From positions 1-62,359 of the IMG/VR virus record IMGVR_UViG_3300032290_000471: 62,359 bases of DNA; one strand, written 5' to 3'. Each line of letters opens with the position of its first letter. The stretch's first letter is position 1. Shown piece after piece: positions 1 through 62,359 of the stretch. The stretch is from a virus. Its lineage: Duplodnaviria; Caudoviricetes. A program made the translations under genes and the position numbers. Under the pieces are notes generated by a model, which ran no database searches, was not told the DNA's origin, and saw only the letters and a list, made by a program, of their open reading frames with translations.

Positions 1-123
1 GATAGTGTCATCCTAACTAAGGGTGAGGAGACGCAGACAATACCATTAAAAGAATTACAACAACATATAACTGATACATATGCCGTTCAAAAACCTACAA
101 CAAATGAAAGCGTGTTACGCGCA
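1..123. repeat. Exact 123-bp terminal direct repeat, copy 1 (circular assembly overlap)
   Basis: Identical to 62237-62359 and lies in-frame within a continuous ORF. Confidence 0.95.
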
Positions 124-3100
124 AAACAATCCGAAATGGGATTGCAAGAAGTGGTCGAAGGAGACCAAGAACTTGATGTCGTTAAGACCGAAGAGCAAAA
201 GCGCAAAGAAGAAATAGAAACAGCTTTAGCTCAGCCTGATAATGGCAAAGGTACTGTTACCATTGGAGATCAATTAATAGAGAGAACGGCATTAGAAACT
301 GAATTGGCTGATATAAACAAGAAGATGGAAGATTCAACAAAAGCAGCCGAGCCTGAAAAGCCAAAAAATGAAATAGAAGATTTGTTGGATGCCGATACAA
401 GTCAGAAAGACAACTTAAAGAAGGTATATGACTTTTTGGATAGGATAGATAAAAATCTTACCGAAAAGACAAAATTTGGTGCAGCGGCTAATGAGTTTAT
501 GAGATTCTTTCCTCTTGAAACATTAAGGTTGGTTGTGAAAGGAGTAAAGGTATTGGTTGAAGGAGGTATGAAATTGCGTGATGCAATAAAAAAAGTATCT
601 GCTGAAAATAAGGTTTCAGAAGATGATGTCAAGTCAGCATTGTCTTACGCAAAAGAAAAAGGCGATTTGCTTGAATTGCCTGACTATGAAAAAACGATTA
701 ATGAAATTCAGGACTACGCTGATTTCGCTACTAACAAAAAGGAATATTGGTCAGAAGAGGTTAAAAGTAGGACAGAGTCGTACAATAAATACGAGAAAAG
801 CGAAAGGTATAGAAAAGGATCACTTACAGAGCAAAGACTAAAGGAAGATATACAAGAGGCCAAGAATGAGCTGAAGAAGTATACTGAAGGCAATCTTGAG
901 GAGGCAATGAAGATATTAGAGGAGAGTGAGACATATAAATCAGCTTCTGATGTTCAGCGTGAGTCTTTGGTAAGAGATATGAGAGAGAGATTTGAGTTAA
1001 AAGAAAAGAAAGCGCCCAAGCCTGAGGAGTTGTTCGGTGATGTTGCTGATATTAATAAGGCGATGGAAGAGATTAAGTTTGAGTTTGAGGATGCCGAAAA
1101 GTCGAAGATATATTTAGAAGACAAGTACGAGAAGGCAAAGGCTGCATATGACGAAAGTGTAAATAAAGGTAAGCCTAGTGAAGCTCTTAAGAGAAACATG
1201 GACAAAGCCAAGGCTGAGATTGAGGAGTATAAGACAAAGAACATAGAGGCGGCAAAAAAAGCATTAAGGAAAACTGAGACATACAAAAAGGCTTCTCCTG
1301 AGCGACAGCAGAAGATGGAGAAGTACTTGGAGGATAGGTTCTTAAGACGTAAAGAGGTGCTCCCAACAAAGCTATTCGAAGGGGCTAAAGAAGGTGGTAA
1401 GGTTACTACAACAAACAAAAGGATTTGGGCTGAAAAACTTAAGTCTTTTTTCAATGGTATAAAAAGCCATGCTAACGCATTGGCAAAAACAAGAAATGCC
1501 ATAAAAGAATCCATCAATGATTTGGCCAAGGGAGGTAAGATAACAGCCAAGCAGGCGGCTACACTCATAGAAAGAGCATCTAAGGTTAAGATATTCAATG
1601 AAGAATCAATAACAAAGTTTGTTGACTATGCATCTAAGCTGTTTGCTGATGCGGATTATGCTAGTAAACTTAACAACGCAAAGTCGCTTAGGAAGAGCGT
1701 TAGCAAGTTGTCAAGAAACAAAGAGACCAACTTGGACTTGAAAGAGATGGGCGAACGCTTCGCTGAGATTGACCCGTCAATGGTTGACAATATTGACCTG
1801 TACAATGAGAATGCAACAAAGATTGCAGACGCTATGAAGGCGTCGTTGGGTAGAAAGTTAGGCGAGACTGTTGTCATAGAGAAGATGTCTGACTACGTAA
1901 AAGAGACAATGGACGCTCAGATTGAGAAGATGACAGAGATAAAGCAGAAGCAGTTGGAGGAGCTTGGTATAGATGCCACCGATATGTCTTATAGTCAGAT
2001 TGTTGAACTGATGAAGGCGCTGAAAGAAGACAAGCCGTTAACTGACGAGCAGGAGAAAGCTGCTAGGGATATTGCAAAGAAGCAGTTTGAGATGAATGCG
2101 GCCATAATAAACGAAATGATTGAGTCGGGAAAGGACCCATTCACGGGCGACGATATTGAGTTTACCGATACTCAGAAAAGATTGGTTAAGGAGTTCATGG
2201 ATATGAACCTGTCTTATCTGTCTGTTAAAGAAGCCAATGCTGCTGCTGCTGCCTTAGACAACTTTATCACCAATGGTTCTACAGCAAAGATGTCTGTTAT
2301 GGCTGATAGGTACAAAGGATTGGTTGAAACTAAAGAATTGTACGACAAAGGAGTAAGGGCAAAGTCATTGAAATCTATTATGCTGCTTGGCTTATTTCCT
2401 AAAACACTCGGTAGGATTTGGGCAGAAAAGATTGGTAGCGTTACCAATGTCATTGATAGGATATTCAGAAGCCCGGGGATAGCAGCAGAAGTATCAAAAG
2501 TTATTGGACTTACTGACGTCATAAATGGACACGCTAAAGGTGTTAGGGTAGCCCAAGACAGGATAAAAGCGTTTATAGATAAATTCAACAAGGGCGACTT
2601 CAACACAGCAGAAAATGATGTGGAGAGAGGTATGTATGCTGATTTGCTTAGAAGTACAGAAGGTACGCCTGAGCAGATAGCAGCAGAGTTCAATGCAAAG
2701 AAAGAGTCTATTAAAGAAGATATTAAAAAACTCAAAGAATCAAAAGACGATGACTTAATAAAGAAAGGAGAGTTGCATCAGAAGGTTTATGATAAAATAG
2801 TAAAGGACTCGAATAATGCTAAAGAGGTTAAGAGTAAAATGAATGAAAAAAATGCTGAGGCTATTGATTGGTGGATTAACGAATGGAGCAGTCATTTTGG
2901 TCCATTGTCTGAGCTTTTGGAATCAGTTTATAACAGAAGATTGGGCAAGGATTTGAACTATACTCCTAGAACAATAAAGTATATAAAGTCAAAGCCAAGA
3001 GAGATTGGTGAGATCGAGTCGGTATTTATGGCTAATAGAGGTGGTATATACACAGGAGAGACGGGCGTAATTATGGAGGCCACAAAGAATAAGCCTCCGA

Positions 3101-5307
3101 GAGATATGTATGTTGACTACTCTTTCAATAAGAACATGTCAGAGTCTTTGTATGACGCCATGATTGATATAAACACAGCTTCCAAGGTAGCCCGCTTGAA
3201 ATCAGCCGTAGACTCTCCGTTCTTTCAGGCAATGTTTGAAGGTAGCAAAGACTATGACGTTTTAAGAAATGTAATCAGCTCTTATGTCAGAGATATGAGA
3301 CATAAAACCATTTACGACCAATCAGAGTTGTCAAGTGGTATAAGAGCCATGAATAACATTGCTACATTGGGCGTTAACATGTCATTGTCAGGAGTAACTC
3401 AGCCTGCAAAGCAGGTTGTACCAATGCTTGGTAATACAATGACAAACGCAGGTGTTGTAAATACCATGAGTGCGATAGCTGCACTTACAAGAGGTGGGTT
3501 GGATTTTGTAAACAGGTCAGGAAGGGATGTTGCCGTTAGAGGACAAGAGTCCATGGTCAATATCAAAGATGTTAACTCAATGATTAAAAATGCTTCTGAG
3601 TCATTAGGCGGAAAATCTATAGACGCTATAGAGAACGCAAATAAGGCTATGCTTAAGTATACACTTAAGAATCCCGACGTTTGGGTAGCTAAAGCATCTT
3701 GGTTGGCTTATTATGAGAAGTATCTAAGGGACAATAAGTTGTATGAAACTGAGGCGATGAAAATGACTGAGAATGAAAGTAAATTGCTTGAAAAATATAA
3801 TAAAGAAGCTGAGGAGATATTGAATGACCCCAATGCTCATGAAATAGATGTCGATTGGGCGGAAAGATGGAAGAAAAATCCATTTATTGAGCAAAGAGAA
3901 AGTGTTAAATTTTGGGAAAGAGAATATGAGCAAGACCCATCAGAATCAAATAAAAATGCAGTCTCTGAGTCAAAAGAATTGTACAGCGCTTTATTGAAAA
4001 GCAGAGGTATTCAAGTAGGTAAATTATCTATAGACTATACAACGCATAAGTTAAACGAAAAGGCTGCTGACTATGCCGACTCTCAAGTAAGAAGACAGCA
4101 GAACGTATCACTCAGAGAATTGCAAGGTGGTATGTTTAAAAGCCAAAATACTTTTGAGAAGTTGTTTGTTCAGACGCTCATGCCATTTTCAAACTTTAGG
4201 ATGAACCAAAAGTCAAGGATGGGCAACGACATGTTTACCATATTCAGCGATGTGGCTACAAAGCAAGAGAAGTTAGACGCTGCTAGGTCATTGGCAGGTA
4301 CAGGAGTAGAGGCTGCTATGTTCAATGGTCTAAGAGTTGCCATAGGTTATGGTCTTTGGCAGGTAGCAAATGCGCTTATTGGAAACGAGCCAACAGAAGA
4401 GCAGGAAGATAAGTACATGAACACCATGATTAAGAGTTCAGCAACAGGCGTTGTCAACGACTTCTTCTCACCACTGCCGCCATTTGACGCTGCAACATCT
4501 TACGGAGCTAACATGTTATTTGATATAACCCAAGACTTGGCTGACATAGAGGACAAGGACAAGCTGAATGTGTTTGATGGTATGTCAAAGCAAGACATAA
4601 CAAAGGCATTTGGTCTGCTAGGTGTTGTGCCTTCAAGGATTGGTCAGACAGCAGAAGCTATCAATCTTTGGTCTACAGGAGACTTTAAAGACGACTTCGG
4701 AAGAGTCAAGAAGTTAAATGATGAGTCTAGAGACGCTATGGGTAACATGGCATTGATATCACTGTTGTCTTTGTCAGGGCTTGGTCTTGCTGAGACTAAT
4801 ACCATAGTTAAAGACGCCATCAAGATAATAAAGAAAGGCGCTAAGGTAGAATCAAAACTGACTCCTCAAGAGCAGAAGGATAAGGCCGAAGGTAAAAAAG
4901 AAAGACAAGAAACAAAGAAAGAAAAGATTAAATCAATAAATGTACTGATAGACCAACAAAACGACCCTGACGTGATAAGGGAACTCCTTAAAATAAGAAA
5001 GGAACTTGAAAAAGGAATGGATAAAAAAGAGAGGAGAAACGAAAAGAAGAAGATGGAAGAGCTGTTGCAGGGGTACGACTCTAAGTCAGACATGAAGCGT
5101 TATGACCCTGATTTATATGAAAGAACATTTGGCGAAGGAACTAAGTACTACATGGAGAACAGGGGAGAGATTGAGGCTGAAAAGAAATTGAGGGAGTATA
5201 TGAGAGAGCAGGAAGATATAGAGCGTAATTACACTCCTAAACCGAAAAGACAGAGACTTAGATTTGAAAACAAGCGTACGCTTAGATTCAGAAGGACAGG
5301 TCCTTAA
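1..5307 (+). CDS. C-terminal part of giant (~2,698 aa) putative internal virion/ejection protein that starts at 59447
   Basis: Frame is open from base 1 and continuous with 59447-62236 across the junction; helical and charged; last gene of the structural arm. Confidence 0.75.
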   Translation, partial: DSVILTKGEETQTIPLKELQQHITDTYAVQKPTTNESVLRAKQSEMGLQEVVEGDQELDVVKTEEQKRKEEIETALAQPDNGKGTVTIGDQLIERTALETELADINKKMEDSTKAAEPEKPKNEIEDLLDADTSQKDNLKKVYDFLDRIDKNLTEKTKFGAAANEFMRFFPLETLRLVVKGVKVLVEGGMKLRDAIKKVSAENKVSEDDVKSALSYAKEKGDLLELPDYEKTINEIQDYADFATNKKEYWSEEVKSRTESYNKYEKSERYRKGSLTEQRLKEDIQEAKNELKKYTEGNLEEAMKILEESETYKSASDVQRESLVRDMRERFELKEKKAPKPEELFGDVADINKAMEEIKFEFEDAEKSKIYLEDKYEKAKAAYDESVNKGKPSEALKRNMDKAKAEIEEYKTKNIEAAKKALRKTETYKKASPERQQKMEKYLEDRFLRRKEVLPTKLFEGAKEGGKVTTTNKRIWAEKLKSFFNGIKSHANALAKTRNAIKESINDLAKGGKITAKQAATLIERASKVKIFNEESITKFVDYASKLFADADYASKLNNAKSLRKSVSKLSRNKETNLDLKEMGERFAEIDPSMVDNIDLYNENATKIADAMKASLGRKLGETVVIEKMSDYVKETMDAQIEKMTEIKQKQLEELGIDATDMSYSQIVELMKALKEDKPLTDEQEKAARDIAKKQFEMNAAIINEMIESGKDPFTGDDIEFTDTQKRLVKEFMDMNLSYLSVKEANAAAAALDNFITNGSTAKMSVMADRYKGLVETKELYDKGVRAKSLKSIMLLGLFPKTLGRIWAEKIGSVTNVIDRIFRSPGIAAEVSKVIGLTDVINGHAKGVRVAQDRIKAFIDKFNKGDFNTAENDVERGMYADLLRSTEGTPEQIAAEFNAKKESIKEDIKKLKESKDDDLIKKGELHQKVYDKIVKDSNNAKEVKSKMNEKNAEAIDWWINEWSSHFGPLSELLESVYNRRLGKDLNYTPRTIKYIKSKPREIGEIESVFMANRGGIYTGETGVIMEATKNKPPRDMYVDYSFNKNMSESLYDAMIDINTASKVARLKSAVDSPFFQAMFEGSKDYDVLRNVISSYVRDMRHKTIYDQSELSSGIRAMNNIATLGVNMSLSGVTQPAKQVVPMLGNTMTNAGVVNTMSAIAALTRGGLDFVNRSGRDVAVRGQESMVNIKDVNSMIKNASESLGGKSIDAIENANKAMLKYTLKNPDVWVAKASWLAYYEKYLRDNKLYETEAMKMTENESKLLEKYNKEAEEILNDPNAHEIDVDWAERWKKNPFIEQRESVKFWEREYEQDPSESNKNAVSESKELYSALLKSRGIQVGKLSIDYTTHKLNEKAADYADSQVRRQQNVSLRELQGGMFKSQNTFEKLFVQTLMPFSNFRMNQKSRMGNDMFTIFSDVATKQEKLDAARSLAGTGVEAAMFNGLRVAIGYGLWQVANALIGNEPTEEQEDKYMNTMIKSSATGVVNDFFSPLPPFDAATSYGANMLFDITQDLADIEDKDKLNVFDGMSKQDITKAFGLLGVVPSRIGQTAEAINLWSTGDFKDDFGRVKKLNDESRDAMGNMALISLLSLSGLGLAETNTIVKDAIKIIKKGAKVESKLTPQEQKDKAEGKKERQETKKEKIKSINVLIDQQNDPDVIRELLKIRKELEKGMDKKERRNEKKKMEELLQGYDSKSDMKRYDPDLYERTFGEGTKYYMENRGEIEAEKKLREYMREQEDIERNYTPKPKRQRLRFENKRTLRFRRTGP

Positions 5308-5717
5308 TACCTTACATATCTGAGCGCCTTCTGCTTATGGTAATATGCCATTAGTTCAAGGTCATTATAGCTACCGGGGCGTGGAGTAGTCCCGCCCCAC
5401 CTAACCTCTCCTACTAACTCTTTGGGGTCGCCGTATATGATACCATCATCGCAGGCCCATATAAGCCAACAGTCTGTGCGCTTGGCTAACAACTTCACAA
5501 CCTTTGCTACTGACACAGGGAGTGGGTAGGCGTCCCGCATAAAGCGTATCCTACCCTTAACCTCTGCGTAACCAACGTGGGAGCCGTCAGTATCCAATAT
5601 CTTGTAGTCTATGTCAAACTTATCCAACTTTTGGAATCGGTATGACTTCATCTCAGTAAACTTCTCAATAGCTTTCTTCTCCCTGACCAAGTCCTGCTCT
5701 GTCTCAAAAATCTTCAT
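5304..5717 (-). CDS. PD-(D/E)XK-like nuclease
   Basis: FDIDY...YAEVKGR motif pattern. Confidence 0.55.
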   Translation of the reverse strand: MKIFETEQDLVREKKAIEKFTEMKSYRFQKLDKFDIDYKILDTDGSHVGYAEVKGRIRFMRDAYPLPVSVAKVVKLLAKRTDCWLIWACDDGIIYGDPKELVGEVRWGGTTPRPGSYNDLELMAYYHKQKALRYVRY

Positions 5718-5898
5718 CCTCTATTAGTTTTTGAATGAATCTTATCTCCCTTATCAACGCCTTGGCGTCTACCATTGCCCTGTCATATTCAGAGTCTACT
5801 AGATGCTCGTAGAGTTTACTTACGATTAAATGCATATCGTTTGTCATATTCAATATGCGTACTGCTCTTTGATTATCTAGCTCTCTTTGGCTTTGCAT
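5704..5898 (-). CDS. Hypothetical protein
   Basis: 64-aa ORF tightly packed in the operon. Confidence 0.6.
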   Translation of the reverse strand: MQSQRELDNQRAVRILNMTNDMHLIVSKLYEHLVDSEYDRAMVDAKALIREIRFIQKLIEDEDF

Positions 5899-5908
5899 GT
5901 CAGTTGCT

Positions 5909-6412
5909 TTAATAGCAATTGAACATCTCGTTTATTCGCCGCTCAATGAGTTTCTCTTCTCCCATCTTCGTTCGGCTGTCGATAAGTTCAATTATGTTTT
6001 GAAGTCTTTTATACTTGGTTCTATTGTGTTCAACATAATCTCTTATCGCCTCCAACTTAGCCACCTGCTCTTCCAATGCTACCAACTTCTTTGTCAGGTA
6101 AGAATCTTTGGCAGTTCTAAGAGGTCCCCTGTCCTTCATAAACTCATCCTTGCAGGTTATGTACTTGTCCTTGATGGCAGGGAATTGATAGAATATGTCG
6201 TCTACTATTGACATGTAATATACTATGGTCGTATGGTCCTTGTTTATAGACTGCGATATGTTTGTCACTGTATACCCTCTCTCTCTGAGTATCTTTGCGT
6301 ATATCATCCTTGCATCCACAATCTCTCTAGACCGCTTCCTTTCCATTACATTAATCTTCATTTTTCTTTTGATAATTTCTTTAAGTTGTTCTGCTTCCAA
6401 TTCGATTGACAT
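5909..6412 (-). CDS. DnaA C-terminal (domain IV)-like HTH protein with coiled-coil tail
   Basis: RKRSREIVDARMIY...ISQSINKDHTTIVY resembles the DnaA domain IV R.R.....AR...RDHTTV pattern. Confidence 0.65.
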   Translation of the reverse strand: MSIELEAEQLKEIIKRKMKINVMERKRSREIVDARMIYAKILRERGYTVTNISQSINKDHTTIVYYMSIVDDIFYQFPAIKDKYITCKDEFMKDRGPLRTAKDSYLTKKLVALEEQVAKLEAIRDYVEHNRTKYKRLQNIIELIDSRTKMGEEKLIERRINEMFNCY

Positions 6413-6427
6413 TTTATTTAATTTAAG

Positions 6428-7327
6428 TTACAACAATCCTTTATAATAACCGCCGAATTTAACCTGTAATAATTTATTTAGCACCTCATCGTCCTCCAAT
6501 ATTTTCTGAGCGTACACAGGCACGGCGTATTTTGTGTACTCTGATGCATGAATTTTCCTGAATTTTCCATTCACCATAAACCCTATCAACGCCCCACTGC
6601 CATATTCGTTTATGGCATATACAGGGTATCCGTTGACTACTTTTCCTCCATACTCTACCTTATATTCCCGCTTCACAGCGAACCTCCTTGGGGTATCCTT
6701 TTTCTTCACACTGTCTATCTTAGGTATTATGTGAAGTATCTGATTCCTTAGTAACAGCTCGTCTGCGGTAAGCAACATGTATGGCTTTACAGTAACAGGA
6801 ACATACAGCGGAAGATTTACTATGTCTCCGTAGTACTCACTACTGCTATCTATACACTTGTACTCGTTTACGACTATCGGGCATATCCTGACGTCATATA
6901 TCGGCACAGGTGCATTTGAGTTAACTATCTGATTCTCCAACTCTCTTTGGTAGAACCTGTACTCGTCTATGTACTGATAATACTGAGCGTATGTTATATC
7001 CTTATACTTCTTATTGGTTTTACCAACAGAGAACTTTGATGCTTCAATCTTGGCAACCTCCCTTCGTATTACCGAAAACATTCTTCGTGCCTCATAAAGC
7101 ATGTCAAACACACCCTCCCTTTCGCTGTTGCTGAGTACCTCCTGCGACCTTGTCTTGATGTATGCCCTGTTATTCTCATAAAAATTAAACACCTTCAACG
7201 CATTGTCATAAAGAGCTAAGCTGTCGTTTTCTGTCGGACACTCTACGTTGTTTCCGTAGGCGTCTCTACATTGAGAAAATGACAGGAATGACCATAGGAT
7301 AAGGATTAGGGTTAGGGGTGTTTTCAT
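6428..7327 (-). CDS. Secreted hypothetical protein
   Basis: N-terminal signal peptide MKTPLTLILILWSFLSFS followed by Q; 299 aa. Confidence 0.7.
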   Translation of the reverse strand: MKTPLTLILILWSFLSFSQCRDAYGNNVECPTENDSLALYDNALKVFNFYENNRAYIKTRSQEVLSNSEREGVFDMLYEARRMFSVIRREVAKIEASKFSVGKTNKKYKDITYAQYYQYIDEYRFYQRELENQIVNSNAPVPIYDVRICPIVVNEYKCIDSSSEYYGDIVNLPLYVPVTVKPYMLLTADELLLRNQILHIIPKIDSVKKKDTPRRFAVKREYKVEYGGKVVNGYPVYAINEYGSGALIGFMVNGKFRKIHASEYTKYAVPVYAQKILEDDEVLNKLLQVKFGGYYKGLL

Positions 7328-7331
7328 ACCC

Positions 7332-7339
7332 CAAAAATA
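7332..7339 (-). promoter_or_regulatory. Bacteroidota -7 promoter box TATTTTTG
   Basis: Matches TAnnTTTG, 4 nt upstream of the ATG at 7327. Confidence 0.5.
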
Positions 7340-7447
7340 CTAATTCATTTTCTTTATTTCTTTGTACAGGTCGAACAGCGTCCAAGCGGAAATCGATATG
7401 CAAAGTATTGATATAGAAGACAATAGGAATAATATCATTTCTTTCAT
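7340..7447 (-). CDS. Small membrane peptide (35 aa)
   Basis: MKEMILFLLSSISILCISISAWTLFDLYKEIKKMN; start overlaps the VRR-NUC stop; not in ORF track. Confidence 0.5.
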   Translation of the reverse strand: MKEMILFLLSSISILCISISAWTLFDLYKEIKKMN

Positions 7448-7683
7448 GGTTTATGTATTTCTGTCTTGATGCCGTGGTCATTTAACTCCCTCATTCTGAA
7501 CTCCTGCAACTTGGATACCTTACCATTTGCTGCCTTCACCTCTACAAACAAAACGTCAGCGTCTTTAGGTATCGCCAAAAGGTCAGGTATGCCGTTTTTA
7601 TTGGTCCTAATCAGCTTGATGACATAGTAACCCTGAGCCTCTAGCTCCTTTATCTTCTTGGTTTGTATCTGCTGCTCGGTCAT
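7444..7683 (-). CDS. VRR-NUC domain nuclease
   Basis: EQQIQ...GIPDL...FVEVK...SKLQ. Confidence 0.85.
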   Translation of the reverse strand: MTEQQIQTKKIKELEAQGYYVIKLIRTNKNGIPDLLAIPKDADVLFVEVKAANGKVSKLQEFRMRELNDHGIKTEIHKP

Positions 7684-7967
7684 TTCTTACTTGATTTGCC
7701 GTTGTGTCCGTTGCGTGCCCTGTTGGCCTTCTGACGCTCGGCAACCAATCTGCCTGACTTGGTATGGCTCATATCCTTGCCGTCACCATTGCCATATGTT
7801 CCCGCCTCTCTATTGGCCTTATTCAGCCTTGCACGATAGCGCTTTCTCTCAGGAGACGCTTGGTACTCCTTGTCGTACTCCAACTTGCGCTTCTTTGAAG
7901 CCTCCGACATGTTTAGTCTGTCATATGACGGGTGATTGCCCGCCAATCCGTTACGTTTACTTTTCAT
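7680..7967 (-). CDS. Basic protein, degenerate HNH-like
   Basis: GDGKDMSH...ANRARN resembles the tail of small phage HNH proteins. Confidence 0.45.
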   Translation of the reverse strand: MKSKRNGLAGNHPSYDRLNMSEASKKRKLEYDKEYQASPERKRYRARLNKANREAGTYGNGDGKDMSHTKSGRLVAERQKANRARNGHNGKSSKK

Positions 7968-9415
7968 ATTAATTTTTTGAAGTGAGAAAGCGTAAAGTCC
8001 TTCTTTTTAGTTACGGTCTTGTATATATCCATCTCAATGCCACCCTTTGAGAACACCCAAAAAACCTCGTTCTCTGCACGCTCCTTGGTAGTCATCCTAT
8101 CCTTAGACTGCCAATAACTAGTGGCGCTGAAATCTATATTGTAATATACAAGATATTTCGCCATTTTCAAAGAGATACCCTCACGCCCCGAAACTATCTG
8201 CAAAGCTATGTTCTTTTTCGTTTCGTTAAATTCGTCTATGTCTGTGGTCAGGTCGTCGCCGAACACTGACTGAAGTGCTGACAGCTCCTCCTTGAACTTG
8301 TAGAAGATTCCTATTTTGCAGTTCGCAAACCGCGAACGGATGAACTCAGCCTTGGTGGTATCCAATACCATTGACTTTCCGCTCTCAAACTTTATCGTTC
8401 CCGAGCATAGCTGATGCACCTTCATCATCAGCTTTACAGGCGTGTCAGCGAGTATCAGCTCGTCCTTGCCCTCAATGACCAAGTCTCTTTTAAGCCTGTC
8501 TACGAGAGCCATAGTCGATGGCTTCATCTCAACCTCAAGCACATGCTCCTGTACCGACGATACGAATCCCGCTTGCGCCTGTGTGTATGAGATGGTGTAC
8601 GTCTCCATAGCCTTCAAGATGGTATCCAATCCGTTTGAGTAGTCATTCATCAGCATGCCGTTTACTTTCTTCTGCTTTACCTTTACGAAGGTGTCAGCGA
8701 AGCGGTAGAAGTTGCTGAACGACCTGAATGGATTGTTACGTATGCCATATACCTGATGGTACATCTGAGAGTACGACTCAGGCGTTGGTGTTCCCGACAG
8801 CAAGATGACCTTGCACCCTAAGTTACGTACAAGATCATGCACGAGCTTGGCTCTTGCGCTTGGCTTGGGGAAGGCCCCCATGCTGTGCGCCTCATCGCAA
8901 ATGATGAGGTCCCAAATTTCGCTGTCCATAACCGTGTGCAGAGACTCATAGTTGATGATAGTCAGCTTAAAGTTCGGACTCAGCTTGTCATAGTCATCCT
9001 GTATAGTTGATAAGGCTTTCTTTTTTGTTATAAACAGGGCGTTATTGATGCCTATTTTTTCTACTATACCAAATGATGTGAGAGTTTTCCCGGTGCGAAC
9101 CTCCATGGCGAGGTAGAGAAATCCGTGGTCCATGATGATTTTGTACCCACGATTGATGATGTCCAACTGATAGGGCCTGTAGTCGAAACTCGGCTTGCTA
9201 TAGTATTCAATGCTTTCTTTGATTTTGGCTTTTGTAGCTTCATCTGATTTGTATTTTGGCTTTTTCACAATCTGTATTTTTGGTGCCCTTCCTGTCTTCA
9301 CGTCAACAGTCTTGCCGACAACAGCGTCTAGCATATTGCAGTAGTCCAACATCATTTCGTTGGTATATCCTATCTTTCGTTCGATTATCATTTTATGCTG
9401 TACAAGCGCAGTCAA
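7964..9415 (-). CDS. SF2 (SNF2-like) helicase
   Basis: RPYQ, MEVRTGKT (Walker A), DEAH, SGTP, GREGISL, QSKDR. Confidence 0.9.
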   Translation of the reverse strand: MTALVQHKMIIERKIGYTNEMMLDYCNMLDAVVGKTVDVKTGRAPKIQIVKKPKYKSDEATKAKIKESIEYYSKPSFDYRPYQLDIINRGYKIIMDHGFLYLAMEVRTGKTLTSFGIVEKIGINNALFITKKKALSTIQDDYDKLSPNFKLTIINYESLHTVMDSEIWDLIICDEAHSMGAFPKPSARAKLVHDLVRNLGCKVILLSGTPTPESYSQMYHQVYGIRNNPFRSFSNFYRFADTFVKVKQKKVNGMLMNDYSNGLDTILKAMETYTISYTQAQAGFVSSVQEHVLEVEMKPSTMALVDRLKRDLVIEGKDELILADTPVKLMMKVHQLCSGTIKFESGKSMVLDTTKAEFIRSRFANCKIGIFYKFKEELSALQSVFGDDLTTDIDEFNETKKNIALQIVSGREGISLKMAKYLVYYNIDFSATSYWQSKDRMTTKERAENEVFWVFSKGGIEMDIYKTVTKKKDFTLSHFKKLI

Positions 9416-10133
9416 ACGCAGGTTTAATCGATTCTAAATCTTGATTCTTAAATAAATTATTTTGAGCTAAGTCCCTTAGTTGTCTATATGTAATATCAGG
9501 GAAGTAAGTATGACCGCCAAAAGCGCCATGTTTTTGAGCTTCATCTTCATCGGCTATCCATTTGTCTGCTAACTCAGGAAATGAAGATAGTATATTGATT
9601 ATGGCATTTTTACCTTTCATAAAGCATAGGTCACAATTTCCAAGTATAGAAGGTATCTCAAGTGTGTATGGCTTCTTTGACCAATAGTCATTTATCATAT
9701 CCTTGGTTATACCTTTATCGTATAGCGGGAATCTATCTATTACTTTCTTGTATTTCTGAACTCTTCTCTTTACCCTTAGTGGCTCATCTGCCCTGAATCC
9801 AATGAAGTTTTCAAATCTTAATATGCCCAATGTTTTTAGGTATCTTTTTGTGGTCTTTATTTTAAGTTCATCAGTGCAAATTCTTTTAACCCTATTAGGT
9901 ATCACCTTGTGGTTTTTCTTTATAAGCAATGCCTTGAATGGGTCTTCTGCATCCATATACTTTAATCTTATTACAGGTATGCCTTCATGAGCCTCAAAGT
10001 CATTTATAAATTTGTAAGTCTTTGGATGTTCTCTACCTGTGTCGCAGAATATAACTAAATCACCTTCTTTGTATTCGTGTATAGTCATATATGCAGATGT
10101 TTTACCTCCGCTGAATAAAATTACTCTTTGCAT
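9393..10133 (-). CDS. PAPS-reductase-family (PP-loop) protein
   Basis: FSGGKTS PP-loop, DTGREHP, RICTDELK, GFRADE, GNCDLCF. Confidence 0.85.
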   Translation of the reverse strand: MQRVILFSGGKTSAYMTIHEYKEGDLVIFCDTGREHPKTYKFINDFEAHEGIPVIRLKYMDAEDPFKALLIKKNHKVIPNRVKRICTDELKIKTTKRYLKTLGILRFENFIGFRADEPLRVKRRVQKYKKVIDRFPLYDKGITKDMINDYWSKKPYTLEIPSILGNCDLCFMKGKNAIINILSSFPELADKWIADEDEAQKHGAFGGHTYFPDITYRQLRDLAQNNLFKNQDLESIKPAFDCACTA

Positions 10134-10147
10134 TATTTAATTTTTTA

Positions 10148-10378: not shown

Positions 10379-10399
10379 TTGTCAAGTTTTTTGTGTCAT

Positions 10400-48397: not shown

Positions 48398-48407
48398 ATA
48401 TACTGCT

Positions 48408-48439: not shown

Positions 48440-48463
48440 ATATCTTTGTATGAAAAGAAACTG

Positions 48464-49447: not shown

Positions 49448-49453
49448 TAACAG

Positions 49454-50377: not shown

Positions 50378-50380
50378 AAT

Positions 50381-53300
50381 ATGGCAGATATTACAAGGAA
50401 CTTTACGGCAGGTAGAATGAATAAGCTCATAGATGAGAGGCTTGTTCCTGATGGTGAGTATATAGATGCCATGAACATCAGAATGGGCTCTACCGAGCTG
50501 TCTGAGGTTGGTGTCATAGAAAACACCAAGGGTAATATCGCATTGACTGCATTGACCTATACAGACGGGACTCCATTGAGTATTGATGCTGTTTGTATTG
50601 GTTCTATAGCCGATAGCGCACATGAAACATTGTATTGGTTTGTTCACGACCCAAACTTTCCTGTTGGAGCAACGGGCAAGTTGGATTTGATTGTTTCATA
50701 CAATGTATTTACAAACATACTAACGTATCACGTAATTAGTATTGACGATGGGAATGGTGCAGTAACAACGCTGAACTTCAATCCAAAGTATTTGATTACG
50801 GGAGTCAACTTGATTGAGAATCTTTTATTCTTTACTGATAACTATAATCAACCAAGATTTATAGATATAAGAAATAATTATAGCAATCCTGTTGCTGACG
50901 TAGACCAATTCAGCGCAGAGTCTATTTTAGTTATAAAGAAGCCACCTACGCAGTCTCCTACAATACAGCCATTTATAACAGGCGGTCAGCAGAATTATCT
51001 TACAGAAAGGTTTATATGCTTTGCCTACAGATATAGATATGCCAATGGAGAGTACTCTGCTACTTCTCAATGGTCTGAGCCATCATTTGTACCAAACCCA
51101 TTCAACCTCAGCATTAGCAGTGTACTTAATGAGGGTATGGTAAACTTCTGTAACGCTTGTATTGTAACCTACAATTCAGGCGGTCCTCTTGTTGTTGGTG
51201 TCGACTTGCTTTTCAAGCAGTCATCAGGTGGTATCATTAAGATTATTGAGAAACTGAACAAGCAGGAGTTAGGATTGTCTGACAATACAGACTATACGTA
51301 TACATTCACCAATAGTAAGATATTTACTGTTCTGCCTGATTCAGAGATACTTAGATTGTATGACAATGTGCCTAGATTGGCTAAAGCCCAAACTATAATG
51401 GGTAACAGGCTGATGTATGGCAACTATGTTGAGGGGTATGATATGATTGACTTAAATGGCGACCCAACAAGATTAACTTATACAACGTCATTAGTATCGC
51501 AAGAAATAGGAACGACTAATGTACCTGACTCTACAAGCTCAGGAAACTATAGTATTGATGGTGCGGTTACTGTCGTTGATTCGGTGCTTGAGTTAGATTT
51601 GACAGACGCCAATTTGGTACAGGGTTCTGTATTGTCTTTTGATGTCACTCTTACTCACGCTCAGTTTTCAGGGCCTGTTACCCCAACTGATACTACAGCT
51701 AACTTCACCGTTAGCTTTGCTTTCTTCTTACCGCAGAACTACGCTTCTGTTTCCGACATGGTAAACAGCGTTCAGTTCCAAGATGCTATCGGTACGAATA
51801 CAAATACACAGACGGTGTATCCATCGTTTTTATCATGCGATGGTATAACATTCACCGACAACATAAATTGCGTAACGCCAATGACATTGGATACGTATAC
51901 CAAGTATGACTATGGTGTTACTCCATTGGCTAAGCATATTGTGGCTACTGCTACAGCAGGCAGTCCGATTGTGAAGATTCAGTTTGCTGCGACTAAATAT
52001 GCAGACACAGCTTCTCCTACAAACTATGCTTTTGAGTATTATAAAGTAGTATCTTCTGAGGCTACATTCCAAGAGATAGCGATGCCAAAGAGTTTGCATA
52101 GTAATAGAGACTATGAGATTGGTATCGTTTATATGGACGAGTTTAACAGGTCAAGTACAGCACTTGTAAGCCTTAACAATACCGAGCATATATCATGTAG
52201 TCTGTCTAGTTACAAGAACTCTATTCAGGTTACAATACCTACCTCACAGATTGCTCCTTATTGGGCTAAGAGATACAAGTTTGTGATAAAGCCTGACAGA
52301 GAGAATTATGAGACCATATATAGCAACTTATTCTTTGAGGACCCCGACAATAATAATGTATATTTTTACTTAGAGGGTGAGAATGCAAGAAAGGTAGAGC
52401 AAGGAGATAGATTGATTGTTAAGTCAGATAGTAATGGTCCTGTATTTAATTGCGCATACGCTACGGTTCTTGAGAAAGAAACAAAAGCAGAAGGTTTTAT
52501 AACTCCTCTATCAGGCTCAACTCCTCCCGCAGGAGTTTATATGAAGATTATTCCTAGCGAGTTTGCTGCTATAGAAGACCCTAATGCAATAATAGCTCCC
52601 GGTACTATACAAGTAGATGAGAATACGCCCAATGAGTGGCCATATATGGACTACCCAATGAACATTGAGGACCCATCTACACCGGGTATGTATATAGACT
52701 ATACTATACCTGCGGGCAGTAGGATAAAGCTATATATTAAATTCCAAAGAACAGGAACAGGTGGCGGTGCAGGACTTTGTGAAAAGAGAGTATATATACT
52801 AAATACTGTATTGGTTTCTTCTGCCAACTACGATAATATGGCCGATTGGTTTATCGGAGATAATGTAGAGTTGATATTAAACACAGGAGTTCAGGATGTT
52901 GGTGGCGGAGGATGTCCCATAAATAATACTTTTTATGGTGTACAAACTATTCCATCTGCTACATTCGGTCCTGTTACAGGTGAATTGTGTAATAATCATT
53001 TTTTCTTTAGAAGAAGTTCAGTCACAAATAGATTGGTTCTTACCATTACGGGTACCGAAAGATGCCCGGGATGGACAGCTCCTCCTAGAAGAAGATCAAG
53101 TATAATAACAGACATTGAGGTATTCAGAGCGGAAGGTGCTTTCATATTTGAGACAGAGCCTTCAGATGCTTTGCCTGATATATTCTACGAGAACAATCTT
53201 TCTTTTGAAATAGATAGCAATGGTCAGCATATGGGTAATGTACAGGACCAAAACTTTGGTCTTAACCAACCTGCTATAGTTGACACTAACTTTTTCAACT

Positions 53301-59446: not shown

Positions 59447-62359
59447 ATGAACGAGAATCAATTACAAGAGCTTTACAACAGAATATCTGCTGCTGATGCT
59501 ACATACAGCAAGAGATACACATTTGACCAATTCAAGACCAATATGCAGGACCAAGCATATGTTGGTAAACTTAGTAGTTGGGCATCAAGCAGAGGTATTG
59601 ATATACCAACAGAACAACCACCTGTTCAGCAACCACCCGTACAGCAACGCCCTGTTGCTAACGCATACAATGCCGAGGACCTTTTAAAAAAAAAGTCCAT
59701 TCAATCGGTTTCGTCATCGGACCAATCTTCATCGGCATCAACATCAGAACAAAATGAAGAGGAGCCTAAGCCATTATACAATGTAGACTCTAAAAGATAC
59801 GAGACTAAACTACCTCAGCAAAAAGAGCAAGAGTTTCAAAAATGGCTTGATTCGCAAGTTAAATTGGGCAGAATATCCCAAGGCGACTATGATTTTTATA
59901 AAAGAAATGGATATGGGTATAACTACGACTTTAGAGCTGCGTTTTTAAATAAAGATTCAGGAGGAATAAGTCCCGTAGATAATCAATGGCATTGGAGCGA
60001 TTATGGTAAAAAACCAAATCACCCTACATTTTCAGTTGAGTCCGTCTATAATATGAGGGATGGGTTGCAAGGCGGTGTTTGGGGAGGAAAAGAAGGAGAA
60101 GATTTTATGGCTCCTTTTAAGCCGCAACCTGCCGTAAGCGAAGGCACACGGGCAGGCGTACCCCCAATCCAACAACAACAAAAAGTACAACAACAGATAC
60201 AACAAAGAGAGCAGAAGCGTAATCTGCCTCAATTTGTCACTGAGCAAGTTGAAGGCGTTACGCCTGAATTGATGTCTAAGGAAGAGGAGTTTGTTGTGCC
60301 TCAGCTTAACTACAAGTTTGGCCCTCTTGGTTTCAAGTTTGAAGAGTCAGGTATAACCAACAACGTGACTGTTACAGCGCCAAACGGCAAAAAGAAAGAC
60401 ATACCAATCCCAACAAATTTATACCAAGACTTGACAACAGGGAACCCTGTACTTAGTGTATTAGGAAAGTTGTTTGGTTATGAAGAAGGACTTGAAAAGG
60501 AAGGTGCAGAGCCTGCCTCTGAACTGAAGATGTTCATCAGAGAGAACGCACAAAATATCAAAGACTTGGCTAAGTACGAGTCGATGTACAGAGGAGAGAA
60601 AGTCAAGTACGAAACAACAAAGCAAGCGGAAGATTCAATAAAATCAGCTTCTGACGAATACAATGCTATAAATGCAAAAATAAACTCTTATTCAAAAGAG
60701 TCTGCAATGGCAGACAAAATGTTTGAGGAACTAAATAAAGTACCCGAAGACCAAAGGGACGATGCGTACAATAAAAGATATGACGAAGCTATTGATATGA
60801 AACAGAGAGCAATAGCAAACGCCAACTCTATAGATGCTGACAGGTACTATGCATCTTCAGTAAAGTATAAGGATGTAGAAAAGTCAGTTGGTGATTACTT
60901 CATGATGAAAAGCGAGCAAGGCACATGGATAGGCGCATTGACTAGAGGCGAATTAAGAGGCACAGGAAGCCTGTTGGCAGGTGCTGTTGACCTAGGAGTA
61001 ATGGCGGGTAATGTGGCTATGTATCCATATATGGCAGGTCAGCCTGAGATGGTAAGACAGAGAGACGAATTGAGAAGGGGCATAATTAATTTCTTCGTAG
61101 ATAACTTTGGCGACAAGTCAACGACAGAACAGTGGACTGCTGCCATGAGCGAAAAGAATGTTGCCAATGCTGCTGTGTTGGGATTGGGTAGTATGGCCCC
61201 CGCATTAGCGGCAGGGGCCATCGCAGGTCCTATAGCAGGAGGTGCTGTGTTTGCTGCTCAGGGATATAACGATACTATGATTGAGGCAGAAGATGCAGGA
61301 ATCCCTCCCGGTGAAAGAGAATTAGTTGCTGTGCCTGTTGGTATAACAATGGGCGTTGTAAGTGAGCTTGGCCTTGGCAAGGTTCCCGGTGTGAAGCAGT
61401 TTGCAAACAGAGTGACGGCTAAAGCGATGGGTGCCTTAGGGGCTGACTTTACAGCCACTACATTTAGGAACTTTGTACAAAACGAAGTTAAGAGTAGAAT
61501 CGCAAGAGGTGCTCTTGTGGCAGGTAAAGGTTTTGTGCATGGTTTTGAAACGGGTGTAAAGATGGAGGCGGGTACAATTGGTATAAAGGAATTGTACAAT
61601 CAAGTAAAAGACAGAAAGGATGAAGGCGGAAACTACATGAAGTCTTTCAATACTCCCGAAAGCATCGGGGACTTCTTTTCTCATTTAGTTGAATCGGGAA
61701 TATCAATGGGTATAGGCGGAACTATATTGGCTTCCCCTGAGGTGTTGAAGTCAGCCGCAGCCAAAAACAACTTCAATGGAATAAGCGACTCGCATTTAGA
61801 GATGTTTGACCTTATGAGTAAGGACGATATGTTCAACTCATTGACTACACTCAAGGTAAAACAGGATATTATAGACGGAAAGATAACAAAAGAACAGGGA
61901 GAGTTGCAGTTAAGGTCCTATCAGGAGTTGGCTTCACTAATGAAGTCGCTGCCTGATGGTCTTACAAATGCGCAGAAGAGAAAATCTCTTGGGCTCCTTC
62001 AAGAGAAGGTGTTGTTGAAAAGTCAGATTGAAAAAGGCGACCCTGCTCTTACAAAGAAGCAGAGAGATAGAGTTACCGAAATAGATAACTTCTTGGGGCA
62101 GATATCAGAAGGGAAGTACTCAGAGGTGTCTGAGATTAAGCCTGAAGATGTAAAGGTTACCATCGGAGACAAGGTGATGTGGAACCCTGACGCTGCAAAA
62201 GAGATGGAGCAGTGGGACGTGGCAGAGGTAAAAGATGATAGTGTCATCCTAACTAAGGGTGAGGAGACGCAGACAATACCATTAAAAGAATTACAACAAC
62301 ATATAACTGATACATATGCCGTTCAAAAACCTACAACAAATGAAAGCGTGTTACGCGCA
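59447..62359 (+). CDS. N-terminal part of giant putative ejection protein (continues at 1-5307)
   Basis: ATG at 59447; I read the frame to the end without a stop; missing from ORF track because it runs off the window. Confidence 0.85.
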   Translation, partial: MNENQLQELYNRISAADATYSKRYTFDQFKTNMQDQAYVGKLSSWASSRGIDIPTEQPPVQQPPVQQRPVANAYNAEDLLKKKSIQSVSSSDQSSSASTSEQNEEEPKPLYNVDSKRYETKLPQQKEQEFQKWLDSQVKLGRISQGDYDFYKRNGYGYNYDFRAAFLNKDSGGISPVDNQWHWSDYGKKPNHPTFSVESVYNMRDGLQGGVWGGKEGEDFMAPFKPQPAVSEGTRAGVPPIQQQQKVQQQIQQREQKRNLPQFVTEQVEGVTPELMSKEEEFVVPQLNYKFGPLGFKFEESGITNNVTVTAPNGKKKDIPIPTNLYQDLTTGNPVLSVLGKLFGYEEGLEKEGAEPASELKMFIRENAQNIKDLAKYESMYRGEKVKYETTKQAEDSIKSASDEYNAINAKINSYSKESAMADKMFEELNKVPEDQRDDAYNKRYDEAIDMKQRAIANANSIDADRYYASSVKYKDVEKSVGDYFMMKSEQGTWIGALTRGELRGTGSLLAGAVDLGVMAGNVAMYPYMAGQPEMVRQRDELRRGIINFFVDNFGDKSTTEQWTAAMSEKNVANAAVLGLGSMAPALAAGAIAGPIAGGAVFAAQGYNDTMIEAEDAGIPPGERELVAVPVGITMGVVSELGLGKVPGVKQFANRVTAKAMGALGADFTATTFRNFVQNEVKSRIARGALVAGKGFVHGFETGVKMEAGTIGIKELYNQVKDRKDEGGNYMKSFNTPESIGDFFSHLVESGISMGIGGTILASPEVLKSAAAKNNFNGISDSHLEMFDLMSKDDMFNSLTTLKVKQDIIDGKITKEQGELQLRSYQELASLMKSLPDGLTNAQKRKSLGLLQEKVLLKSQIEKGDPALTKKQRDRVTEIDNFLGQISEGKYSEVSEIKPEDVKVTIGDKVMWNPDAAKEMEQWDVAEVKDDSVILTKGEETQTIPLKELQQHITDTYAVQKPTTNESVLRA
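62237..62359. repeat. Exact 123-bp terminal direct repeat, copy 2
   Basis: Identical to 1-123. Confidence 0.95.

What the first reader, a model, noticed from the sequence alone, without database searches (positions are those of the whole stretch)
1..62359. Near-total genome-wide avoidance of CCAG/CTGG, with GATC also scarce
Seen: by eye I found only one CTGG (11026-11029, in a mosaic AT-rich gene) and no CCAG on the + strand. Pro-Gly junctions are written CCC GG or CCG GG (e.g. near 2472, 27773, 29044, 33351, 45826, 52598, 56671, 61385) although Pro is otherwise usually CCT/CCA. Ala/Thr/Ser-Gly use NCA/NCG before GG, even in the collagen repeats, and Pro-Glu/Asp avoid CCA G. GATC also looks much rarer than expected. 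Inference: strong selection against an asymmetric 4-mer, which is broader than the CCWGG palindrome, points to a host defence that reads CCAG. An alternative is erosion of the phage's own m5C target by deamination.
Basis: partly seen in the sequence, partly recalled or inferred. Interest (0 to 1): 0.75.

Follow-up and report, generated by a model that had tools for sequence, protein, structure and literature searches.

The report
Phage genome purged of CCAG sites
This 62-kb phage genome, like most of its many uncultured relatives, spells its genes so that the four-letter word CCAG (and mostly GATC) never occurs, most likely to stay invisible to DNA-cutting defence enzymes of its bacterial hosts.

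Summary
CCAG+CTGG occurs once (11026) against 350 (Markov) or 299±13 (synonymous codon shuffle) expected. GATC occurs 19 times against 149-190. Every 5-mer extension of CCAG is absent, so the unit is the 4-mer, not CCWGG.

The window is a complete-looking podovirus genome. Its cultured relatives infect Flavobacteriia. In three overlapping samples of its uncultured clade, 39 of 73, 56 of 81 and 62 of 80 loci also lack CCAG. The state changed at least 11 times on the TerL tree and combines freely with elimination of GATC, CATG, CTAG and GGCC. Selection is ongoing: the nearest relative differs by 972 substitutions, which should have made 15-21 sites but made 1. One unrelated 35.7-kb phage also has 0 against 73 expected.

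The phage's own C5 methyltransferase is not the cause. Six clade relatives and 55 unrelated phage loci with homologues keep CCAG. No phage gene tracks the avoidance.

Best reading (about 0.8): restriction-type avoidance of a host defence that acts on single CCAG sites in either orientation. Neither host nor enzyme was identified. I recall no restriction enzyme with this specificity, but CCAG-specific methyltransferases are published.

The parts
1..62359 (.). Genome-wide elimination of CCAG/CTGG on both strands, in all three codon phases and in intergenic DNA
   Evidence: 1 site against 299-350 expected; intergenic 0 against 20.6; all six codon contexts that could spell the word are unused.
11026..11029 (-). 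The only residual site (CCAG on the gene strand, a TTC CAG Phe-Gln junction) in ORF 10579-11130
   Evidence: It lies in a run of low-GC ORFs (9393-11130, GC 0.34-0.36 against 0.41 for the genome). The PAPS-reductase-like gene in this run has its closest homologues in unrelated low-GC phages, which fits recently imported DNA not yet purged. The import is an inference.
268..53097 (.). 19 residual GATC sites, spread along the genome (about 8-fold depletion)
   Evidence: 19 against 149-190 expected; selection looks weaker than for CCAG (the nearest relative has 6 GATC in the aligned part against 12-14 simulated). Many relatives have 0 GATC.
17342..18310 (-). Phage C5 cytosine DNA methyltransferase (322 aa), tested as a possible cause and excluded
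   Evidence: PF00145, E = 1.6e-41; best solved match is M.HhaI, over the catalytic half only; homologue-bearing phages keep CCAG.
40313..45000 (+). Terminase large subunit and portal genes, used as markers to place the phage and collect relatives
   Evidence: phrog_6681 E = 1.7e-180 and phrog_6547 E = 4.3e-145..

Best explanation
The window is the genome of a lytic-type podovirus of Bacteroidota from a very large uncultured clade. Its lineage has removed every CCAG/CTGG, and most GATC, almost entirely by synonymous respelling, because each such site is a liability in its hosts.

The most likely agent is a restriction-type host defence that recognises the 4-bp asymmetric word CCAG on unmodified incoming DNA. 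It seems to act on single sites in either orientation, like the 4-bp Type IIS/IIA enzymes, so only total elimination gives escape. A genome with no site cannot be cut and needs no methylation.

Shown: the depletion, its synonymous nature, ongoing purifying selection, its spread and lability among relatives, independence from phage genes, and recurrence in an unrelated phage.

Inferred: that the selective agent is a host nuclease system, its type, and the host phylum.
For: (1) Magnitude: 1 site against 299 +/- 13 under synonymous shuffling. All eight 5-mer classes and intergenic DNA are empty.

(2) Mechanics: all six codon contexts that would spell the word are unused, while the same codons are common elsewhere.

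(3) Ongoing selection: locus L194 is 87% identical at nucleotide level, with 972 substitutions in 7,873 aligned columns. Simulations that keep the substitution types create 20.8 +/- 4.3 sites, and those that also keep the positions create 15.3 +/- 3.2. One site was observed, and 0 of 1000 simulations gave 1 or fewer.

(4) Clade-wide and labile: CCAG is below 0.15 of expectation in 39 of 73 TerL-centred loci, 56 of 81 primase-centred loci and 62 of 80 GroEL-centred loci. The three sets share some contigs. Pooled over the CCAG-free loci, 37 sites are seen against 3,496 expected. The state changes at least 11 times on the TerL tree.

(5) Same behaviour as classical restriction targets: of 136 4-mers, only nine are ever eliminated in the clade. 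Seven are palindromes (GATC 43/73, CATG 22/73, CTAG 12/73, GGCC 9/51, CGCG, GCGC, CCGG). The other two are CCAG (39/73) and CCCG (4/62). CCAG and GATC states occur in all combinations.

(6) Genome-wide in relatives: 0 sites over 47 kb of one 54-kb contig, and 4 against 288 in the complete genome MW202828.

(7) In a sister pair, 162 CCAG sites of the CCAG-keeping phage align to CCAA (43), CCTG (40), CCGG (20) and other words in the CCAG-free one. The amino acids are unchanged at 118 of 154 coding sites.

(8) Convergence: the unrelated record G006 (35.7 kb, GC 0.29) shares only four proteins with the window and has no TerL homologue. It has 0 sites against 73 expected.

(9) CCAG-specific methyltransferases exist. 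One was confirmed by knockout in H. pylori A45, and the motif was detected in T. phaeum (PMC10689673, passages read). It was also detected in Sporosarcina P32a, where it is listed as not unique to that strain (PMC5930826, table passage read).
Against: No host, R-M system or nuclease was identified, so nothing ties CCAG to a defence gene.

I recall no characterised restriction endonuclease with the bare site CCAG (recall, not a database check).

Published surveys find elimination almost only for orthodox palindromic Type II sites: 7.1% against under 0.5% for other types (PMC6286503, section 13 read). An asymmetric target is therefore atypical.

Outside the clade the trait is rare in what I sampled. 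It is eliminated in 0 of 55 methyltransferase-sharing loci and falls below half of expectation in 0 of 17 endolysin-sharing unrelated loci. There is one clear unrelated case (G006) and two partial ones (G008 27/126, L369 5/36). Cultured relatives keep CCAG: elemoA 140/161 and phi38:1 136/232.

The gene-association tests covered window coordinates of about 2-38 kb only.
Confidence: 0.8

Rival explanations
1. The host defence reads modified CCAG. Phage DNA is methylated at CCAG by a methyltransferase in one host, and a modification-dependent (Type IV / IIM) nuclease cuts it in the next. Having no site escapes both. This is still a host defence that reads CCAG, but with the opposite logic.
For: CCAG-specific methyltransferases are documented without a characterised cognate nuclease (PMC10689673 and PMC5930826, passages read). 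Modification-dependent enzymes with short m5C contexts exist; LpnPI, CCDG, is listed in a table of PMC6329791 (passage read). Total elimination in both orientations fits as well as it does for classical restriction.
Against: CCDG-type readers would also select against CCTG and CCGG. CAGG/CCTG is over-represented (O/E 1.3), and CCGG is not co-depleted in CCAG-free relatives (pooled 740/664). The scheme needs two host functions instead of one. Nothing here distinguishes it directly.
Confidence: 0.1
2. A Type III R-M system with a CCAG Mod specificity is the agent. It cuts only when two unmethylated sites lie in inverse orientation.
For: Type III Mod proteins can have 4-5 bp asymmetric sites (recalled, not checked). 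A Type III enzyme whose site contains CCAG (GmeII, TCCAGG) is listed in PMC6329791 (table passage read).
Against: Escape from Type III needs only one orientation to be removed, so a strand bias is expected. Here both orientations are gone. Residual sites in near-free relatives lie in both orientations: L003 3+3, L026 2+2, MW202828 1+3. Avoidance of Type III sites is very rare in phages (PMC6286503, abstract and section 13 read).
Confidence: 0.05
3. The phage itself makes a CCAG-specific endonuclease, for example to degrade host DNA, and its genome lacks the site so that it is not cut.
For: The window encodes small PD-(D/E)XK nucleases: PDDEXK_5 at 28539-28922 (E = 3e-20) and a weak PDDEXK_14 match at 5304-5717. 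In my samples the trait is concentrated in one clade.
Against: PDDEXK_5 is found in 1 of 62 CCAG-free GroEL-centred loci. PDDEXK_14 is in 41 of 43 CCAG-free loci and also in 6 of 8 CCAG-keeping loci. Among 638 ORF clusters in 81 primase-centred loci, none separates the two states. The best is a 64-aa ORF, present in 40 of 56 against 3 of 19. The same phages also eliminate up to four classical palindromes, which own nucleases would not explain. An unrelated phage sharing only four proteins with the window is also CCAG-free.
Confidence: 0.03
4. The phage's own C5 methyltransferase methylates CCAG (or CCWGG), and m5C deamination has eroded the sites.
For: A C5 methyltransferase is encoded at 17342-18310. 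The C-to-T products TCAG and TTGG/CCAA are over-represented.
Against: Only 1 of 56 CCAG-free primase-centred loci (the window itself) carries this gene. The 6 clade relatives with a 58%-identical homologue have 79/87, 119/147, 140/147, 72/85, 43/54 and 79/87 sites. None of 55 unrelated homologue-bearing loci falls below O/E 0.39. The complete relative MW202828 has 4/288 sites and no methyltransferase is annotated in its record. Mutation pressure cannot hold 300 potential sites at one while 972 substitutions accumulate. The commonest replacements include CCTG and CCGG, which are not deamination products; Pro before G is CCT 138 times.
Confidence: 0.01
5. Artefact or functional signal. Either CCAG is systematically miscalled at a modified motif, or the word is reserved for a unique phage signal such as a packaging or origin site.
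For: Basecalling errors at methylated motifs are known for nanopore assemblies (recalled). The window keeps exactly one site.
Against: The gaps are filled by in-frame, mostly synonymous alternatives, which miscalls would not respect. The pattern recurs with different motif sets in hundreds of contigs. Relatives have no site at all over 47 kb and over a whole 35.7-kb record. The window's one site lies in a non-conserved ORF and is not conserved in relatives' loci that cover that region.
Confidence: 0.01

Closest known systems
Restriction-site avoidance by non-temperate dsDNA phages (survey: Rusinov et al. 2018, PMC6286503)
   Same: Complete or near-complete loss of a short word from a phage genome, achieved without changing proteins, and differing between related phages.
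   Different: The survey found elimination almost only for orthodox, palindromic Type II sites and linked each site to a known enzyme of a known host. Here the main word is an asymmetric 4-mer, and no enzyme or host is known. It is also the second most often eliminated word in a whole clade, after GATC.
CCWGG (EcoRII / Dcm-type) and CCNGG avoidance
   Same: CCWGG contains CCAG/CTGG and is absent from the window.
   Different: Only about 46 of about 299 missing sites are CCWGG. CCAGA, CCAGC and CCAGT classes are equally absent. CCCGG/CCGGG occur 26 times.
4-bp asymmetric Type IIS/IIA restriction enzymes (MnlI CCTC, AciI CCGC, Sth132I CCCG; names and sites recalled, not checked)
   Same: They read a non-palindromic 4-bp word and cut at single sites in either orientation. 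That is the behaviour the sequence pattern implies. CCCG is also eliminated in 4 of 62 relatives.
   Different: No enzyme with the site CCAG is known to me, and none was found here.
CCAG-specific DNA methyltransferases (H. pylori A45 hp0944 by knockout; motif in T. phaeum DSM 12270: PMC10689673; Sporosarcina sp. P32a: PMC5930826)
   Same: They show that proteins with exactly this 4-bp specificity exist in bacteria, as the modification half of an R-M system would need.
   Different: They come from other phyla, no restriction partner is described in the passages read, and there is no link to these phages.
Orientation bias of Type III sites in phage genomes (T7 and EcoP15I; recalled)
   Same: The target word is asymmetric.
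   Different: There the sites persist in one orientation. Here both orientations are removed, and residual sites in relatives are mixed.

Membership tests
Restriction-site avoidance (anti-restriction by site elimination) | Word count far below expectation under nulls that keep composition and protein sequence | tested here: met
   1 against 350 (Markov) and 299 +/- 13 (codon shuffle, minimum 268 of 200 shuffles).
Restriction-site avoidance (anti-restriction by site elimination) | Loss on both strands, in all codon phases and in non-coding DNA, by synonymous respelling | tested here: met
Restriction-site avoidance (anti-restriction by site elimination) | Maintained by current purifying selection rather than being a relic | tested here: met
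   1 new site against 15-21 simulated; 0 of 1000 simulations gave 1 or fewer.
Restriction-site avoidance (anti-restriction by site elimination) | The host carries a nuclease system with that specificity | not testable with these tools
   The host is unknown. The window's genome record is the phage contig alone.
Restriction-site avoidance (anti-restriction by site elimination) | The trait varies among related phages and recurs in unrelated ones exposed to the same defence | tested here: met
   At least 11 state changes on the TerL tree. Unrelated record G006 has 0 against 73. That the same defence acts on G006 is an inference.
CCWGG (EcoRII/Dcm) avoidance | Depletion confined to CCAGG/CCTGG | tested here: not met
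   the other seven 5-mer classes are also 0-1 against 55-96 expected.
Type III R-M avoidance | Sites kept in one orientation only | tested here: not met
Decay of the phage's own m5C methylation target | Depletion goes with presence of the methyltransferase | tested here: not met
   homologue-bearing phages keep CCAG, and 55 of 56 CCAG-free loci lack the gene.
Elemovirus / Callevirus-like podoviruses of Flavobacteriia (placement of the phage) | Shared terminase, portal and gene order with cultured members | tested here: inconclusive
   Against Flavobacterium phages elemoA-F, TerL is 45% and portal 47% identical. Against Cellulophaga phi38:1, portal is 35% identical. GroEL/GroES and a giant structural gene are shared. 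So it is related but far outside those genera. The closest deposited record is an uncultured 60.9-kb podovirus at 79%.

The most novel reading that the evidence does not exclude
Uncultured aquatic Bacteroidota widely carry a still uncharacterised restriction specificity: a single-site cutter of unmodified CCAG, which would be a new 4-bp asymmetric prototype. Its imprint on this very abundant phage clade is second only to that of GATC-specific systems. It has also driven convergent purging in at least one unrelated phage. If so, the 'forbidden words' of uncultured phages (CCAG, CCCG and, in other contigs, CAGG) can serve as a culture-free read-out of host defence repertoires and as a way to find new enzymes.
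Probability: 0.5. Interest if true: 0.65.

Novelty: new variant of a known kind. Interest (0 to 1): 0.6.

Why it matters
Site avoidance is textbook. An asymmetric 4-mer that is purged as completely and as often as GATC across a clade is not. The clade returned more than 600 terminase matches, 407 primase matches and 478 chaperonin matches in IMG/VR.

The finding predicts a concrete, testable enzyme activity (cleavage at CCAG, methylation of CCAG) in hosts that have not been cultured or identified.

It shows that these phages rely on avoiding up to five words at once rather than on methyltransferases. It also gives a sequence-only marker that splits close relatives by the defences they face.

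New 4-bp specificities have practical value as reagents.

Tried and rejected

2. A megablast of 20 kb against deposited phages found nothing. Protein searches then placed the phage.

3. Counting CCAG across host genomes with the genome search is not possible because the pattern is too short. I did not pursue host-genome counts. I only counted words in six 20-kb pieces fetched to find a phage boundary.

4. Literature. Searches looked for CCAG with restriction, methylome, Bacteroidetes, REBASE, or phage under-representation. They found CCAG methyltransferase reports but no report of CCAG avoidance in phages. PMC7320823 has no mention of CCAG. PMC6329791, a lake metaepigenome, lists no CCAG motif in the passages found. 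Supplements were not seen and could hold motif tables.

5. Gene-content association in primase-centred and GroEL-centred loci found only clade-linked small ORFs. Pfam scans of ten associated clusters found no methyltransferase or restriction-like nuclease. A motif scan found methyltransferase-like ORFs in only 8 of 81 loci.

6. Orientation of residual sites showed no one-strand pattern.

7. Unrelated phages sharing the methyltransferase or the endolysin showed no CCAG elimination. Only the search seeded with the PAPS-reductase-like gene found one.

8. The methyltransferase's target was not determined. Its region between motif VIII and the C-terminal motifs is a poorly conserved low-complexity linker.

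9. MAG labels of contigs carrying clade members are mostly Bacteroidota but include evident mis-binnings such as Aliivibrio and archaea. They are hints only.
Full report
**1. The observation**

The window has 0 CCAG and 1 CTGG (11026-11029) on the + strand. Expected counts are 350 (second-order Markov) and 315 (base composition). GATC occurs 19 times against 190 and 227.

I called 64 ORFs covering 91% of the window and shuffled synonymous codons within each, 200 times. That gives 299.1 +/- 12.9 CCAG/CTGG (minimum 268) and 148.6 +/- 10.1 GATC (minimum 121). No other 4-mer comes near. The next are CGCG 18/65, TCGA 62/157 and CCGG 23/57.

The unit is the 4-mer. Each of the eight one-base extensions is seen 0-1 times against 46-96 expected. 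CCWGG would explain only about 46 of the roughly 299 missing sites. Intergenic DNA has 0 against 20.6.

- Pro CCA is used 208 times, but 0 of 191 times before a G.
- Leu CTG: 0 of 390 before G, against 143 of 963 elsewhere.
- Gln CAG: 1 of 83 after NNC, against 337 of 637 elsewhere.
- No NNC codon precedes any of 215 Trp codons.
- No NCT codon precedes GGN (0 of 250).
- No NCC codon precedes AGN (0 of 155).

Every possible site can be avoided synonymously, and every one has been.

**2. What the window is**

The genome record holds only this contig. It encodes:
- a large terminase (40313-42562) and portal (42559-45000);
- a GroEL-type chaperonin;
- a primase with a BT4734-like domain, an SNF2-type helicase, a Sak annealing protein with a PD-(D/E)XK exonuclease, a PAPS-reductase-like protein and a C5 DNA methyltransferase;
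- small PD-(D/E)XK nucleases, an SprT-like protein and an M15 peptidase.

The open frame at the 3' end (59447-62359, exactly 971 codons) continues in frame into the open frame at the 5' end (1-5307). This fits a complete, circularly closed assembly. That reading is an inference.

By terminase and portal protein, the nearest deposited record is an uncultured 60.9-kb podovirus (79% and 78%). The cultured relatives all infect Flavobacteriia: 68 Flavobacterium elemo phages (45-47%), 15 Cellulophaga phages, 2 Tenacibaculum phages and 1 Maribacter phage.

MAG bins that contain clade members are mostly labelled Bacteroidota, with some obvious mis-binnings. One clade member occupies roughly the first 64 kb of a 3.0-Mb contig labelled Saprospiraceae. 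A Bacteroidota host is therefore likely but not shown.

**3. Relatives**

The clade is very large in IMG/VR. I kept the best 80 of each, with up to 10 kb on either side. Some contigs appear in more than one set.

CCAG is below 0.15 of expectation in:
- 39 of 73 TerL-centred loci of at least 8 kb. Of the other 34, 11 are partial and 23 normal. Another 28 loci with a near-full TerL were dropped as shorter than 8 kb.
- 56 of 81 primase-centred loci; 19 are normal and 6 other.
- 62 of 80 GroEL-centred loci; 18 are normal.

Pooled over the CCAG-free TerL-set loci, 37 sites are seen against 3,496 expected. Different loci of one contig agree. One 54-kb contig has no site over the 47 kb covered. The complete genome MW202828 has 4 against 288, with GATC 0/193.

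On a FastTree of TerL proteins, the CCAG-free state needs at least 11 changes. GATC needs 13, CATG 13 and CTAG 9.

Of all 136 4-mers, only nine are ever eliminated (O/E < 0.1 with at least 10 expected):
- GATC 43/73
- CCAG 39/73
- CATG 22/73
- CTAG 12/73
- GGCC 9/51
- CGCG 4/22
- CCCG 4/62
- GCGC 2/46
- CCGG 1/43

CCAG and GATC states occur in every combination. Single loci have from none to all five of CCAG, GATC, CATG, CTAG and GGCC eliminated. CCGG is not co-depleted with CCAG, and CAGG/CCTG is over-represented. The word is therefore not part of a degenerate CCRG or CCDG site.

The cultured relatives eliminate other words and keep CCAG. ElemoA has GGCC 0/16 and CATG 2/94 with CCAG 140/161. 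Phi38:1 has CGCG 0/25 with CCAG 136/232.

**4. Selection is current**

The closest relative found, L194, is 87% identical in DNA. Over 7,873 aligned columns the two differ at 972 positions. I placed the same kinds of substitutions at random positions, or at the observed positions with permuted target bases. These simulations create 20.8 +/- 4.3 and 15.3 +/- 3.2 CCAG/CTGG sites. L194 has one, and none of 1000 simulations gave 1 or fewer.

For GATC the same test gives 12-14 simulated against 6 observed, so selection there is weaker or relaxed.

In a sister pair, L062/L152 keep CCAG and L042/L140 lack it, at about 80% DNA identity. The 162 aligned sites correspond in the CCAG-free phage to CCAA (43), CCTG (40), CCGG (20), TCAA (12), TCAG (7), CTAG (6) and others. 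The amino acids are unchanged at 118 sites, changed at 36, and 8 are non-coding.

Residual sites in nearly free relatives are either scattered or clustered in short blocks: 5 of 6 within 440 bp in L037, and 4 of 6 within 600 bp in L120. Clustering fits import by recombination. The window's single site lies in a low-GC run of ORFs. The PAPS-reductase-like gene of that run has its closest homologues (70-81%) in unrelated low-GC phages.

**5. Rivals tested**

*Own methyltransferase.* Its homologue is present in 7 of 81 primase-centred loci. Six of these are CCAG-keeping relatives (0.80-0.95 of expectation) and the seventh is the window. The window's enzyme is 58% identical to theirs. Of 80 unrelated phage loci with 49-65% identical homologues, I examined the 55 of at least 7 kb. 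None is below O/E 0.39. Deamination decay is rejected.

*Own nuclease.* PDDEXK_5 occurs in 1 of 62 CCAG-free loci. The PDDEXK_14-like ORF occurs in 41 of 43 CCAG-free loci and 6 of 8 CCAG-keeping loci. No ORF cluster separates the states. Window coordinates of about 38-62 kb, which are structural genes, were not tested this way.

*Type III logic.* Both orientations are removed, and residual sites are mixed.

*Unique signal or artefact.* Site-free relatives exist, and the replacements are in frame and synonymous.

**6. Outside the clade**

Record G006 is 35,703 bp, GC 0.286, with estimated completeness 92%. It shares with the window only the PAPS-reductase-like gene (73-78%), the endolysin (60%) and weak primase and methyltransferase matches. 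It has no terminase homologue. It has 0 CCAG/CTGG against 73 expected, and GGCC 0/18. G008 has 27/126 and L369 has 5/36.

So the purge has arisen in at least one unrelated phage. That argues for an external, host-side agent. It is not general, however. Seventeen unrelated loci that share the endolysin all stay above half of expectation.

**7. Mechanism and comparison**

The pattern is what restriction-site avoidance looks like. The type of target is unusual. A survey of almost 4,000 viruses found elimination for 7.1% of orthodox Type II sites and under 0.5% for other types. It saw no avoidance for Type I and IIG sites and very rare avoidance for Type III (PMC6286503, abstract and section 13 read).

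Total loss of an asymmetric word in both orientations implies an agent for which a single site in either orientation is enough. From memory, that is how the 4-bp Type IIS/IIA enzymes MnlI (CCTC), AciI (CCGC) and Sth132I (CCCG) behave. I recall no enzyme for CCAG.

Proteins with this specificity do exist. A CCAG methyltransferase was confirmed by knockout in H. pylori A45, and the motif was seen in T. phaeum (PMC10689673, passages read). It was also seen in Sporosarcina P32a, where it is marked as not unique (PMC5930826, table read). My searches found no report of CCAG avoidance in phages. Supplements were closed.

**8. Verdict**

The kind of phenomenon is known. The target, its prevalence and the multi-word purging in this uncultured clade are new as far as I could find.

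Noticed in passing
L127, L132, L154, L181, L190 and others (primase-centred loci): Many relatives eliminate four to six 4-mers at once. L127, for example, has CCAG 0/48, GATC 0/36, CATG 1/32, CTAG 0/24, GGCC 0/16 and CCGG 0/16. Across the three sets, 4-14 loci per set lack all five of CCAG, GATC, CATG, CTAG and GGCC.
   Followed up: partly
L059, L067, L083, L093 (TerL-centred loci): A second asymmetric 4-mer, CCCG/CGGG, is eliminated in 4 of 62 testable loci, for example L067 0/15 and L059 0/13. These loci keep CCAG.
   Followed up: no
L464, L465 (unrelated phages sharing the endolysin): These show the opposite pattern. CAGG/CCTG is strongly depleted (6/31, 6/48) and CCGG is 0/22 and 0/33, while CCAG is over-represented (84/43, 95/59).
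   Followed up: no
window, genome-wide: Other words are depleted beyond CCAG and GATC. CCGGC/GCCGG is 0 against 12.1, AGACCT/AGGTCT 4 against 22.1, GAGCTC 0 against 8.3 and CTGCAG 3 against 14.8. CGCG is 18 against 65-77.
   Followed up: no
window 59447-62359 and 1-5307: The 3'-open ORF (971 codons) runs in frame into the 5'-open ORF (1,768 aa). Together they would give a giant structural protein of about 2,740 aa, like those of MW202828 and the elemo phages. This suggests the contig is a complete circular assembly.
   Followed up: partly
window 9393-10133 (-): A PAPS-reductase-like gene (PF01507, E = 6.6e-9) lies in a low-GC block next to the SNF2 helicase gene. Its closest homologues (70-81% aa) are in unrelated low-GC phages, so it looks horizontally exchanged. 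A role in DNA modification is possible but untested.
   Followed up: partly
window 17342-18310 (-): In the C5 methyltransferase, about 85 residues between motif VIII and the conserved C-terminal block form a low-complexity, poorly conserved stretch. A recognisable target-recognition domain would normally sit there. Its target is unknown.
   Followed up: partly
G001:C33:1-64000 (L354, L355, L094): A clade member with normal CCAG content occupies the first ~64 kb of a 3.0-Mb contig labelled Saprospiraceae MAG. It is followed by DNA with no phage matches and different word usage (GATC about 0.4, CCAG about 0.65 of expectation). It may be a true link to a host or an assembly join.
   Followed up: partly
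G002 and G004 (MAGs labelled Flavobacteriaceae / Flavobacteriales): Single bins hold five and four terminase matches of this clade respectively, most on different contigs. The bins seem to have collected several phage genomes.
   Followed up: no
L112, L140, L178, L116 (primase-centred loci): CCGG is over-represented in some CCAG-free relatives (106/59, 67/33, 45/20, 48/31). This may be a by-product of respelling CCAG as CCGG (20 of 162 sites).
   Followed up: no
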